A stretch of DNA of 64,000 nucleotides, taken from Escherichia phage JY01. Both the position numbers and the translations under genes were made by a program. The stretch is from sequence record OR995200.1; one strand, given 5' to 3'. The notes beneath the pieces were generated by a model. It did no database searches. It was given only the letters and a program-made list of their open reading frames with translations, and was not told the DNA's origin. Shown in pieces: positions 44,611 to 46,987 of this stretch (position 1 is its first letter; the number at the start of each line of letters is the position of its first letter).

Positions 44611-44700
44611 GCAGGGAGGGGAAATCAAAGGATAGGATAATATATTATAAAGGGTAGAAACTAAATGATGTCTAGAGAGGCCTGGAAAGGCCTAGATACC

Positions 44701-44728
44701 AAAAAGCCCCAACCTTTCGGCTAGGGCT
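44701..44728 (-). terminator. Rho-independent terminator (GAAA loop) after internal-protein-like gene
   Basis: RNA-sense AGCCCUAGCC-GAAA-GGUUGGGGCU followed by UUUUU. Confidence 0.6.
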
Positions 44729-44735
44729 AAGAATG

Positions 44736-45209
44736 TTATTTGATTTGTTTAGCAGACCAAATGCGGTCTTTAATAATTTTTTGGATATCTTCAACATACT
44801 CAAGAGAGTGAGCATGTGGGTTATCTTTGAAACTATAAGCACGAGCTAGTTTTTGGCCTTCAGTTTTGATTACTAAAAGCTCTTTAAGGATAGCTTCATA
44901 TTTGGAGATAATTCCTTTAACAATATTTTTCTCTTGTGCGACTTTAGGATCTGCTTTAGGAGCAGGTTTACCCGAAGCCTTTGCAAAAGCAGCGCCAGTA
45001 GCAACTAAACTTTTCCAGGCCATACTAACTGCATTTCCCGTAAATCCTTCCGCTTTCATGTCGCGTGCGAACTGGAATCGTGATTCATCAGAAGCATCTT
45101 TGTAAGAATATTTACCCGCTGCAATGGCTGCTTTTGCGACAGCTTGAATTTCGGTGCTAGATGCTTCATTTAACACCGCTTCATTTAAAAATTGAGTATA
45201 TGATTTCAT
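44736..45209 (-). CDS. Internal-protein-like protein with capsid targeting sequence
   Basis: N-terminus MKSYTQFLNE followed by A; Ala/Lys-rich; late promoter TATAAATA upstream. Confidence 0.5.
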   Translation of the reverse strand: MKSYTQFLNEAVLNEASSTEIQAVAKAAIAAGKYSYKDASDESRFQFARDMKAEGFTGNAVSMAWKSLVATGAAFAKASGKPAPKADPKVAQEKNIVKGIISKYEAILKELLVIKTEGQKLARAYSFKDNPHAHSLEYVEDIQKIIKDRIWSAKQIK

Positions 45210-45249: not shown

Positions 45250-45257
45250 TATTTATA
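45250..45257 (-). promoter_or_regulatory. Late promoter (TATAAATA) upstream of internal-protein-like gene
   Basis: RC of tatttata gives TATAAATA about 40 nt upstream of ATG at 45209. Confidence 0.5.
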
Positions 45258-45259
45258 CC

Positions 45260-45285
45260 AAAAAGCCCCAACCTTTCGGTCGGGG
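45260..45285 (-). terminator. Rho-independent terminator (GAAA loop) after RNA gene cluster
   Basis: RNA-sense CCCCGACC-GAAA-GGUUGGGG followed by CUUUUU. Confidence 0.6.
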
Positions 45286-45290
45286 CTAAG

Positions 45291-45596
45291 CCTTGCGGCA
45301 ACCTTGTCGGGGTTCCACCTGCTAAGGCAAGTGTTTGTACGAAACGCCGGGATTCGAACCCGGTTATTAAGCAGTTGACGCTACTCAATATTTTTAAAAG
45401 GCCATATCTCGACCATATCCGAACGTTCCGTCAAAAACGCTACTCGGCTTACGGCAAAGATATTTCCTCGAATCGATAATTCGGTGCGCCGTTTCTGCTG
45501 TGATGTAAGAGGGCATCAATAAACGCAAAGATTATTAACGCAATTCCTTACTCAGGGAACATCAGTCCGACGACTTACCGGTAGCGACCCGGTTTC
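45291..45596 (-). ncRNA. Candidate small stable RNA region with tRNA-like T-arm
   Basis: No ORF; perfect T-arm-like hairpin CCGGG-TTCGAAT-CCCGG (RNA sense) at 45349-45365; bounded by terminator-like hairpin at 45260-45285. Confidence 0.3.
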
Positions 45597-45947
45597 TTAA
45601 TATTCTTTTAAAGCATCAATCTGTTTACGGCGTTCACGCCATAAATCAATTGCTTCATACGCGGATTCAACATTTCGAATTGGACGGCATTTATATAAAG
45701 ATTTGTGATTTTGATATTGCGTAGATAACGGAATTTTATCTAAAAGGTCTTTACGTTCAAAGTATTCGTAACCATCTAAGCCAAATGAACGATTTTTGAG
45801 AAATTGCCAATGACCAAATTCGTTTTGAATATAAATATAATCCGCATGTTGATAAAGTAAATTAATTTCACGAAATGAGATATGTTTTTCATATTCATTG
45901 AAGTAAAATGTTAAATCATGAACTACTAAATAAACATTACCTTTCAT
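45597..45947 (-). CDS. Hypothetical protein embedded in RNA gene cluster
   Basis: 116 aa ORF between candidate stable RNA region and tRNA-Arg; no nuclease motif seen. Confidence 0.45.
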   Translation of the reverse strand: MKGNVYLVVHDLTFYFNEYEKHISFREINLLYQHADYIYIQNEFGHWQFLKNRSFGLDGYEYFERKDLLDKIPLSTQYQNHKSLYKCRPIRNVESAYEAIDLWRERRKQIDALKEY

Positions 45948-46121: not shown

Positions 46122-46235
46122 ATTAATACCTACTCCAACAATCAAGATGTCTTCACACGAAATTAAGAGAAGAGTGATCAGTTCAACCCCTATAATCGCG
46201 TCAAGTAGATATTAATGTGACAGTTGTCACAAATT

Positions 46236-46661: not shown

Positions 46662-46663
46662 AG

Positions 46664-46737
46664 TCTCCATACAAGGATTTGAACCTTGGACCTCCTGATC
46701 CCAAATCAGGCGCTCTACCAAACTGAGCTACACGGAG
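46664..46737 (-). tRNA. tRNA-Pro (anticodon UGG), CCA not encoded
   Basis: Anticodon stem CCUGA/UCAGG, loop UUUGGGA; T-loop UUCAAAU. Confidence 0.75.
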
Positions 46738-46913: not shown

Positions 46914-46914
46914 G

Positions 46915-46987
46915 CTGGGAATAAAGGACTCGAACCTTTGCATCCTGGAATCAAAATCCAGTGCCTTACCAACTTGGCTAATTCCCA
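46915..46987 (-). tRNA. tRNA-Gln (anticodon UUG), CCA not encoded
   Basis: Anticodon stem CUGGA/UCCAG, loop UUUUGAU; acceptor complement exact. Confidence 0.75.

What the first reader, a model, noticed from the sequence alone, without database searches (positions are those of the whole stretch)
45291..45596. ORF-free 300 nt region with an isolated tRNA-like T-arm
This stretch between two terminator-like hairpins and the 116 aa ORF has no credible ORF but carries a perfect T-arm-like hairpin (CCGGG-UUCGAAU-CCCGG in RNA sense) without a matching acceptor stem. T4 is recalled to encode two small stable RNAs of unknown function next to its tRNA genes; this may be the equivalent locus or a tRNA remnant.
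Basis: partly seen in the sequence, partly recalled or inferred. Interest (0 to 1): 0.45.

Follow-up and report, generated by a model that had tools for sequence, protein, structure and literature searches.

The report
Phage T4 small stable RNAs
The gene-free stretch holds this T4-like phage's copies of two small stable RNAs known since the 1970s (rnaD and rnaC), and the "orphan" tRNA T-arm belongs to rnaC, a tRNA-shaped RNA whose function is still unknown.

Summary
The window comes from a Tequatrovirus. On the minus strand, 45600-45338 is about 98% identical to the annotated T4 genes rnaD (species 2 RNA) and rnaC (species 1 RNA). The T-arm (45363-45347) is the T-arm of rnaC. It does have an acceptor stem: 7 positions, 5 Watson-Crick pairs and two invariant U.U mismatches. 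Comparing 28 distinct rnaC sequences from at least 6 phage genera supports a tRNA-like four-way junction: 97.9% of cells paired and 23 compensatory pairs, against 2-4 in slid controls. Marfavirus copies encode U-CCA after the stem. Two invariant 6-nt loops (UUGACG and CGUCAA) are exact complements and change together in Marfavirus (UUGGCG/CGCCAA), which implies a loop-loop contact. rnaD is a separate covariation-supported family with a variable central hairpin. It also occurs in Vequintavirinae and Marfavirus, usually embedded in tRNA arrays. Neither RNA matches any Rfam family, and neither has a counterpart in E. coli genomes. Their function is unknown in the literature. My best guess is non-decoding tRNA mimics matured by the tRNA-processing enzymes, possibly acting as decoys.

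The parts
45483..45600 (-). rnaD (T4 species 2 RNA) homolog, 118 nt. Its first 4 nt overlap the last sense codon and stop codon of the 116-aa ORF.
   Evidence: About 98% identical to T4 rnaD. Covariance model R2 scores it at 55 bits, E=3.9e-11.
45577..45593 (-). rnaD P1 hairpin (ACCGG-GUCGCUA-CCGGU)
   Evidence: Covaries across lineages; 6 of 7 model pairs show a change on both sides. The same hairpin read on the plus strand is the terminator-like hit.
45486..45574 (-). rnaD main rod. P2 (G27, C29-G33 with C110-C115, U28 bulged), then P2b (U40-U43 with A102-A105), then the invariant internal loop UCCCUG / AUCAC, then the variable hairpin P3 (45552-45505). The 3' tail is ACC.
   Evidence: RNAalifold and pair counts. 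P2 has G-C to A-U and G-C to C-G changes. P2b has U-A in 17 and A-U in 7 sequences.
45477..45482 (-). 6-nt spacer GAAUUA (AAAUUA in T4), the leader of rnaC. It resembles the AU-rich spacers between the tRNAs.
45338..45476 (-). rnaC (T4 species 1 RNA) homolog, 139 nt by the T4 annotation
   Evidence: About 98% identical to T4 rnaC. MFE -50.2 kcal/mol, z=-4.55. Model R1 scores it at 166 bits.
45469..45475 (-). rnaC acceptor-stem 5' strand CGAUUCG (nt 2-8)
   Evidence: Pairs with 45346-45340. The third pair is A-U in 14 and G-C in 14 distinct sequences. The two U.U mismatches are invariant.
45399..45468 (-). rnaC long arm (nt 9-78) in the place of a D-arm. The apical loop UUGACG is at 45434-45429.
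   Evidence: Helices 2-5 carry 12 compensatory pairs. The alignment block that holds the arm plus one nt is exactly 71 nt in all 28 distinct sequences, although two unrelated sequence types exist.
45365..45390 (-). rnaC anticodon-like arm: a 10-bp stem and the 6-nt loop CGUCAA (45380-45375)
   Evidence: 8 of 10 pairs are compensatory. The loop is the exact reverse complement of the apical loop of the long arm, and the two change together in Marfavirus.
   Evidence: The middle pair is G-C in 15 and U-A in 13 sequences.
45340..45346 (-). rnaC acceptor-stem 3' strand CGUUUCG, followed by U (discriminator position) and ACAA
   Evidence: Marfavirus copies read G-U-CCA-A at this place.
45291..45337 (-). 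Conserved 3' trailer with three small hairpins. The same sequence follows rnaD directly in Dhakavirus phages, which lack rnaC.
45258..45287 (-). Intrinsic terminator AGCCCCGACC-GAAA-GGUUGGGGCU plus a U tract: the end of the tRNA / stable-RNA transcription unit

Best explanation
The minus strand of 45600-45338 encodes the homologs of T4 rnaD (species 2 RNA) and rnaC (species 1 RNA). They lie at the 3' end of the phage tRNA operon: 11 tRNAs, a 116-aa ORF, rnaD, rnaC, a trailer, then a terminator.

Shown: rnaC is a tRNA-shaped but non-decoding RNA. It has a 7-position acceptor stem with two invariant U.U mismatches. It has a canonical T-arm. A 71-nt arm sits where the D-arm would be. An anticodon-like arm carries a 6-nt loop that is complementary to the apical loop of the long arm. 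rnaD is a second, unrelated structured RNA: a 5' hairpin plus a long rod with an invariant internal loop and a swappable apical hairpin.

Inferred, about 0.8: both RNAs are cut out of the operon transcript by the tRNA-maturation enzymes. RNase P would cut just 5' of the rnaC acceptor stem, which also sets the rnaD 3' end. The rnaC 3' end would then be trimmed back to the discriminator U and receive CCA. The tRNA-like module would thus act as a built-in processing and stability handle.

Inferred, about 0.6: the two rnaC loops pair, locking the two arms into a closed shape, or joining two molecules.

Guess, about 0.25: the mature RNAs act in trans as tRNA mimics or decoys that bind a host or phage factor which recognises tRNA ends. 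Their function is unknown in the literature.
For: Identity: near-identity to the annotated T4 features, and 805 phage records carry the region.

rnaC structure: 46 pairs, 97.9% of cells paired against 38-44% in slid controls. 23 pairs have compensatory changes against 2-4 in slid controls, and 0 of 500 shuffles reach the observed value.

tRNA-likeness:
- The T-loop motif is not a chance match.
- The rnaC model gives weak hits (13-21 bits) to real tRNAs.
- ARAGORN and one GenBank record miscall a tRNA inside a homolog.
- Marfavirus copies encode U-CCA after the acceptor stem.
- The window's own tRNA-Gln and tRNA-Pro also lack an encoded CCA, so CCA addition is already needed for this operon.
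- The rnaC leader resembles the spacers between tRNAs.
- In other genera rnaC sits between two tRNAs.

Loop-loop contact: UUGACG/CGUCAA in 21 distinct sequences and UUGGCG/CGCCAA in 7, with no exception. Complementarity stops at the loop edges. Arm lengths are invariant although the arm sequence was replaced.

rnaD: 88% of cells paired against 31-42% slid, and 20 compensatory pairs against 5-11. It lies within a few nt of an upstream tRNA in T4, JS98, LTH01 and PG7.

Expression and relevance: T4 RNAC was validated by Northern blot, and both RNAs are classed as late RNAs (PMC9697503). A single convergent SNP in rnaD of phage BW1 arose in three lines and raised virulence on host ECOR34 from 0.17 to 0.98 (PMC12685909).
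Against: - No transcript data exist for this phage. The processing steps are inferred from structure and from what I recall of T4 tRNA biology.
- The annotated T4 rnaC 5' end is one nt upstream of the first base pair, and its annotated 3' end (…GUA) does not show a CCA.
- In this phage rnaD is preceded by an ORF, not a tRNA, so its 5' end needs another nuclease.
- The loop-loop covariation rests on one evolutionary event, the Marfavirus clade.
- The rnaD alignment was fitted to the model, which inflates its pairing figures.
- Nothing here tests any trans function.
- As I recall it (not checked here), T4 mutants deleted for the tRNA region are viable on laboratory hosts, so any role is conditional.
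Confidence: 0.9

Rival explanations
1. A decaying tRNA gene (pseudogene) that has kept only its T-arm and has no function.
For: No tRNA is called by ARAGORN or Rfam. There is no D-arm and no 7-nt anticodon loop.
Against: The whole 139-nt RNA is conserved in at least 6 genera, with 23 compensatory pairs and invariant loops. Arm lengths are fixed while the arm sequence was replaced. The T4 RNA is abundant and stable (PMC9697503).
Confidence: 0.02
2. The region encodes small proteins, as many GenBank records annotate it ('hypothetical protein').
For: ORFs of 50, 44 and 34 aa exist, and many deposited genomes annotate CDSs here.
Against: All three ORFs start with TTG. They straddle the RNA boundaries and the terminator. 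The substitutions are compensatory for RNA helices rather than synonymous. T4, RB3 and RB6 annotate the region as RNA.
Confidence: 0.02
3. The elements act only in cis. They would be processing or stability signals and a transcription end for the tRNA operon or the 116-aa ORF mRNA. The stable RNAs would then be by-products with no function in trans.
For: They always lie inside or at the end of tRNA arrays. rnaD abuts the stop codon of the ORF in this window. A terminator follows.
Against: The invariant loops and internal loop, the loop-loop complementarity and the strict arm lengths go far beyond what a processing signal needs. rnaC and rnaD occur independently of each other and of the ORF. 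The adaptive SNP in BW1 rnaD points to a host-specific effect.
Confidence: 0.12
4. They are base-pairing regulatory sRNAs that target host or phage mRNAs. One candidate site is the pyrimidine-rich UUCCCU(G/C) motif of rnaD, which resembles an anti-Shine-Dalgarno sequence.
For: rnaD carries the invariant GUUCCCUG, and many variants carry a second UUCC(C)UC in the P3 loop. The 2022 omics paper calls them small regulatory RNAs, while stating that their functions are unknown.
Against: No target has been identified. The conserved stretches are short and mostly lie inside structure. There is no similarity to E. coli genomes. The 2010 review states that no trans-acting T4 sRNA has been characterised (PMC3014915).
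Confidence: 0.1

Closest known systems
T4 rnaC (species 1 RNA) and rnaD (species 2 RNA)
   Same: About 98% identical sequence, same order (rnaD then rnaC), same strand as the tRNAs and downstream of them, same trailer and terminator.
   Different: In T4, rnaD starts one nt after tRNA-Arg. Here a 116-aa ORF (phrog_3355, unknown function) lies between them and its stop codon overlaps the rnaD start. There are a few point differences, including A to G at the nt after the rnaD ...ACC tail.
Canonical tRNA (Rfam RF00005)
   Same: rnaC has a 7-position acceptor stem stacked on a 5-bp T stem, the T-loop UUCGAAU, a discriminator base, CCA encoded in Marfavirus, and a position inside tRNA arrays.
   Different: There is no D-arm; a 71-nt arm takes its place. 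There is no 7-nt anticodon loop; the arm has a 10-bp stem and a 6-nt loop. Two U.U mismatches sit in the acceptor stem and the junction linkers differ. Rfam and ARAGORN do not call it.
tRNA-like domain of tmRNA
   Same: The 5' and 3' ends pair into an acceptor stem next to a T-arm, with a large non-tRNA body in between. Per my knowledge of tmRNA, it is processed like a tRNA.
   Different: ARAGORN finds no tmRNA and no tag reading frame. There is no G3.U70 alanine identity pair, and the body architecture differs.
Bacterial and phage Y RNA-like RNAs (YrlA, RF02553)
   Same: Non-coding RNAs that include a tRNA-like module, some of them phage-encoded (my knowledge of Chen et al. 2014).
   Different: In YrlA the termini form the Ro-binding stem and the tRNA-like part is internal. 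Rfam YrlA gives no hit on rnaC; the only hit is 17.7 bits against a 69-bit gathering score, and it lies over real tRNAs.
phi29 pRNA and other kissing-loop RNAs
   Same: Two complementary hairpin loops within one RNA, which could pair within or between molecules.
   Different: There is no sequence or fold relation. As I recall, T4 packages DNA without any RNA. The resemblance concerns only the loop-loop principle.
Engineered 'tRNA scaffold' RNAs
   Same: A foreign RNA body embedded in a tRNA frame, so that tRNA enzymes process it and it is stable in E. coli (concept cited in PMC3401473, listed).
   Different: Those are artificial and keep the D and T arms. rnaC is natural and replaces the D-arm.

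Membership tests
T4 rnaC (species 1 RNA) | Sequence homology to the annotated T4 rnaC | tested here: met
   Only 3 of the 139 aligned positions differ from T4. Model R1 scores the window at 166 bits.
T4 rnaC (species 1 RNA) | Location at the 3' end of the tRNA cluster, same strand, upstream of the operon terminator | tested here: met
T4 rnaC (species 1 RNA) | Accumulates as a small stable RNA in infected cells | not testable with these tools
   Shown for T4 by Northern blot (PMC9697503), not for this phage.
T4 rnaD (species 2 RNA) | Sequence homology to the annotated T4 rnaD and position immediately 5' of rnaC | tested here: met
   Model R2 scores the window at 55 bits, E=3.9e-11.
T4 rnaD (species 2 RNA) | Starts directly after tRNA-Arg, as in T4 | tested here: not met
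   A 116-aa ORF intervenes. The same arrangement is seen in T2 and RB69, and the ORF has homologs in 425 phage records. It is therefore a common variant of the locus, not evidence against homology.
tRNA (RF00005) | Acceptor stem plus T-arm with the T-loop consensus | tested here: met
tRNA (RF00005) | D-arm and a 5-bp anticodon stem with a 7-nt loop; detected by tRNA models | tested here: not met
   No ARAGORN or Rfam tRNA call. The best hit is tRNA-Sec at 16.6 bits, E=3.7. The covariation-supported structure has a 71-nt arm and a 10-bp/6-nt arm.
tRNA (RF00005) | Aminoacylation and decoding | not testable with these tools
   It needs acid-gel or periodate assays. The 6-nt loop engaged in loop-loop pairing argues against decoding (inference).
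tmRNA | tRNA-like domain plus tag-peptide reading frame and pseudoknots; detected by ARAGORN or Rfam | tested here: not met
YrlA / Y RNA-like | Match to RF02553 (Ro-binding stem plus internal tRNA-like module) | tested here: not met
   No hit on rnaC or rnaD.
Any Rfam 15 family | Score at or near the gathering threshold | tested here: not met
   Window and five distant homolog loci: only tRNAs are found.

The most novel reading that the evidence does not exclude
rnaC is a natural 'tRNA-scaffolded' RNA. Its two long arms are closed into a ring, or joined into dimers, by a conserved 6-bp kissing-loop contact. Together with rnaD it serves as a decoy or sponge for a host factor that targets tRNA ends or tRNA processing, for example an anti-phage tRNA-directed toxin. 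That would explain its spread in the tRNA arrays of unrelated large enterobacterial myoviruses and the host-specific adaptive SNP reported in rnaD.
Probability: 0.2. Interest if true: 0.7.

Novelty: already known. Interest (0 to 1): 0.3.

Why it matters
As a locus this is ordinary. It is the textbook T4 rnaD/rnaC pair, which many deposited phage genomes mis-annotate as hypothetical proteins or as a tRNA.

It matters for three reasons:
- The function of these abundant RNAs has been open for about 50 years.
- The comparison made here gives concrete handles for experiments. These are a covariation-backed tRNA-like fold with invariant U.U mismatches, a predicted loop-loop contact with a ready-made compensatory mutant design, an invariant internal loop in rnaD, and two covariance models.
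- The families turn out to reach beyond Straboviridae, into Marfavirus and Vequintavirinae. That argues for a general role in large enterobacterial phages that carry tRNA arrays.

Tried and rejected
- Rfam at gathering and at permissive thresholds, on the window and on five distant homolog loci: only tRNAs and noise.
- ARAGORN: no tRNA or tmRNA in the region.
- Ancestor tRNA: the rnaC T-arm plus acceptor 3' strand matches none of the window's tRNAs better than 15 of 27 nt. No donor tRNA can be named.
- E. coli complete genomes (5,426): no similarity.
The 80 loci listed were tested with model R2 and none is an rnaD, so they are chance matches. The test is inconclusive for bacteria as a whole.
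- Pairing between the rnaD 3' region (GAAACG) and the rnaC 3' strand (CGUUUC): considered, then dropped. rnaC copies in phages without that rnaD sequence carry CGUUCC with a matching change in their own 5' strand.
- rnaD 'CGUC' competing for the rnaC loop: no covariation in Marfavirus.
- Literature: four searches and several papers give no function. The original 1970s-80s papers are not held. My recollections of them are marked as memory only. These are that the species 1 sequence is about 140 nt, that RNase III cleaves it in vitro, and that some T4 precursors need RNase BN and CCA addition.
- Pfam and PHROGs on the two flanking ORFs: unknown function.

Full report
**What is there.** The window carries 11 tRNA genes on the minus strand between 46987 and 45966. 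No tRNA or tmRNA is called in 45291-45596. Rfam finds only those tRNAs at gathering thresholds. At E up to 10 it finds only noise in the region, the best hit being tRNA-Sec at 16.6 bits, E=3.7. The T-arm hairpin lies at 45363-45347 on the minus strand. The T-loop motif GGTTCRANYCC occurs 11 times in the window against 0.27 expected; ten sites are in tRNAs and the eleventh is this one. Only TTG-started ORFs of 50, 44 and 34 aa overlap the stretch.

**Identity.** The stretch is found in 805 phage records, almost all Tequatrovirus and relatives, with 100% identity to phages slur02/04 and Sa45lw. In T4 (NC_000866) the homologous DNA is annotated as rnaD (species 2 RNA, 71053-71171) and rnaC (species 1 RNA, 70908-71046), directly downstream of tRNA-Arg. 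The pairwise alignment is nearly identical over both RNAs, the 6-nt spacer and the trailer. Mapping gives rnaD = 45600-45483 and rnaC = 45476-45338 in the window.

**Difference from T4.** Here a 116-aa ORF (45947-45597; phrog_3355, unknown function; no Pfam family) lies between tRNA-Arg and rnaD, and its stop codon overlaps the rnaD start. The ORF has homologs in 425 phage records. T2 and RB69 show the same tRNA-Arg, ORF, rnaD arrangement.

**The T-arm belongs to a tRNA-like RNA with an acceptor stem.** rnaC alone folds into a four-way junction at -50.2 kcal/mol, z=-4.55. I collected homologs from:
- Kagamiyamavirus (EcS1);
- Moonvirus (KM16, Moon);
- Karamvirus-type Enterobacter and Cronobacter phages;
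- Kanagawavirus (CIP9, KLB31);
- the unrelated Klebsiella genus Marfavirus;
- viral and metagenome contigs.

On 28 distinct sequences the structure has 46 pairs with 97.9% of cells paired, against 38-44% when partners are slid. 23 pairs show changes on both sides, against 2-4 in slid controls, and 0 of 500 shuffles reach the observed value (first pass).

The helices of rnaC are as follows:
- **Acceptor stem.** C2-G8 pairs with C131-G137. The third pair is A-U in 14 and G-C in 14 sequences, and the two central U.U mismatches are invariant.
- **Long arm.** It replaces the D-arm.
- **Anticodon-like arm.** A 10-bp stem with an invariant 6-nt loop.
- **T-arm.** Canonical, with the middle pair G-C in 15 and U-A in 13 sequences.

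Several further observations point to tRNA-like maturation.
- After the acceptor stem the Tevenvirinae copies read U-ACAA, whereas the Marfavirus copies read U-CCA-A, an encoded tRNA 3' end.
- In the window itself tRNA-Gln and tRNA-Pro also lack an encoded CCA.
- The rnaC leader resembles the AU-rich spacers between tRNAs.
- In other genera rnaC sits between two tRNA genes, for example Phe/Trp in EcS1 and Trp/Gly in KM16.
- The rnaC model gives weak hits to genuine tRNAs.
- ARAGORN and one GenBank record miscall a 95-nt 'tRNA-Met' inside a homolog.

From this I infer, but have not shown, the following processing: RNase P cleavage at the 5' end of the acceptor stem, then 3' trimming and CCA addition.

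**A loop-loop contact.** The apical loop of the long arm (UUGACG, 45434-45429) is the exact reverse complement of the loop of the anticodon-like arm (CGUCAA, 45380-45375). Complementarity stops at the loop edges. All 21 distinct non-Marfavirus sequences have this pair. All 7 Marfavirus-type sequences have UUGGCG with CGCCAA, a double change that keeps the pair.

The long arm exists in two unrelated sequence versions, T4-type and Kanagawa/Marfa-type. Yet the aligned block that holds it is 71 nt in all 28 sequences and forms 24-26 bp in each of the four representatives folded. The other arm is always 26 nt. Only the single-stranded linker varies, from 6 to 9 nt. The path through the anticodon-like arm (10 bp), the kissing helix (6 bp) and the apical helix (6 bp) is about as long as the rest of the long arm (about 20-23 bp). 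An intramolecular closure with a bend at the 3-nt bulge is therefore geometrically plausible. A reciprocal dimer is the alternative. The weakness of this evidence is that the covariation rests on one clade.

**rnaD.** Its own fold energy is unremarkable (z=-1.64), but comparison shows a real family.

Its distribution is wide and partly independent of rnaC.
- It occurs without rnaC in Dhakavirus (MX01, JS98).
- It occurs with rnaC in Mosigvirus (RB69), Karamvirus (PG7), Moonvirus, Kanagawavirus and Marfavirus.
- It is found in Jiaodavirus.
- It is found in Vequintavirinae (LTH01, CR9).
- It is usually within a few nt of a tRNA.

Its structure, from 5' to 3', is:
- a 5' hairpin, P1;
- P2, with a bulged U and a 3' tail that reads ACC(A) in T4;
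- P2b;
- an invariant internal loop, UCCCUG opposite (A)UCAC;
- an apical hairpin, P3, that comes in at least four unrelated versions.

On 29 sequences aligned to model R2, 88% of cells are paired against 31-42% slid, and 20 pairs are compensatory against 5-11. The caveat is that this alignment was fitted to the model. In Dhakavirus the trailer that follows rnaC in this window follows rnaD directly, so rnaC behaves as a discrete insertion/deletion module.

**Function.** The literature held here says the roles of RNAC and RNAD are unknown (PMC3014915). They are classed as late RNAs, and RNAC was validated by Northern blot (PMC9697503). In the T4-like phage BW1, one SNP in rnaD arose in all three lines evolved on E. 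coli ECOR34 and raised virulence from 0.17 to 0.98 (PMC12685909). From the coordinates given there, the SNP would fall about 73 nt from the rnaD 5' end, inside P3. That placement is my inference, made without the BW1 sequence.

There is no similarity to 5,426 complete E. coli genomes and no Rfam family.

My committed reading has three parts.
- Both RNAs are matured by the tRNA machinery (about 0.8).
- rnaC is a non-decoding tRNA mimic whose tRNA module is a processing and stability handle.
- The conserved body acts in trans, most likely by binding a factor that recognises tRNAs, as a decoy or sponge (about 0.25).

Purely cis-acting roles (about 0.12) and base-pairing sRNA roles (about 0.1) remain open.

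**Comparison and novelty.** The locus is a member of the T4 rnaC/rnaD families by direct homology. It is not a tRNA, tmRNA or YrlA by their defining features (see the membership table). The locus is already known. To my knowledge the following are not described in the papers I could reach: the comparative structure, the invariant U.U pair of mismatches, the loop-loop complementarity, and the spread to Marfavirus and Vequintavirinae. I could not read the original 1970s-80s papers, so parts of this may have been noted before.

Noticed in passing
window 46122-46235 (minus strand): The 114-nt spacer between tRNA-His and tRNA-Asn has no tRNA or Rfam hit but folds with z=-4.36. It is conserved at 81-83% identity in Klebsiella and Enterobacter T4-like phages (355 records). 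It may be a third structured RNA in the tRNA array.
   Followed up: partly
window 44696-44731 and 45255-45290: Two 36-nt direct repeats (92% identical), each containing a terminator hairpin, bracket the 157-aa ORF 44736-45209 (phrog_2280, unknown). TATAAATA (T4 late-promoter consensus) follows the rnaC terminator on the minus strand. This looks like a promoter/terminator-flanked cassette of the PeSL type (PMC4122927, seen only as title and abstract). T4 lacks it at this place.
   Followed up: partly
window 45597-45947 (minus strand): A 116-aa ORF of unknown function (phrog_3355; no Pfam family) sits between tRNA-Arg and rnaD. It has homologs in 425 phage records but is absent at this place in T4. 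One GenBank record calls it 'endonuclease', which nothing here supports.
   Followed up: partly
related loci: L010 (T2), L020 (Klebsiella phage EI), L004 (Enterobacter phage id4496), and many records: Deposited genomes commonly annotate 'hypothetical protein' CDSs across rnaC and rnaD. One record annotates a 95-nt tRNA-Met inside rnaC, which ARAGORN reproduces. Only T4 and some RB-series records annotate the RNAs.
   Followed up: yes
window 46914-46987 and 46663-46737: tRNA-Gln and tRNA-Pro lack an encoded 3' CCA, while the other nine tRNAs have it.
   Followed up: yes
L023 512-660 (Enterobacter phage CIP9): This rnaC copy has a non-canonical T-loop (UGCAUGC instead of UUCGAAU) while keeping the stem and the rest of the RNA. 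The T-loop sequence is therefore not strictly required in every lineage.
   Followed up: no
window 45291-45337 (minus strand); L006, L007: The trailer between rnaC and the terminator forms three small hairpins, one with a GCAA tetraloop. It is conserved in Dhakavirus, where it follows rnaD directly. Its role is unknown.
   Followed up: no
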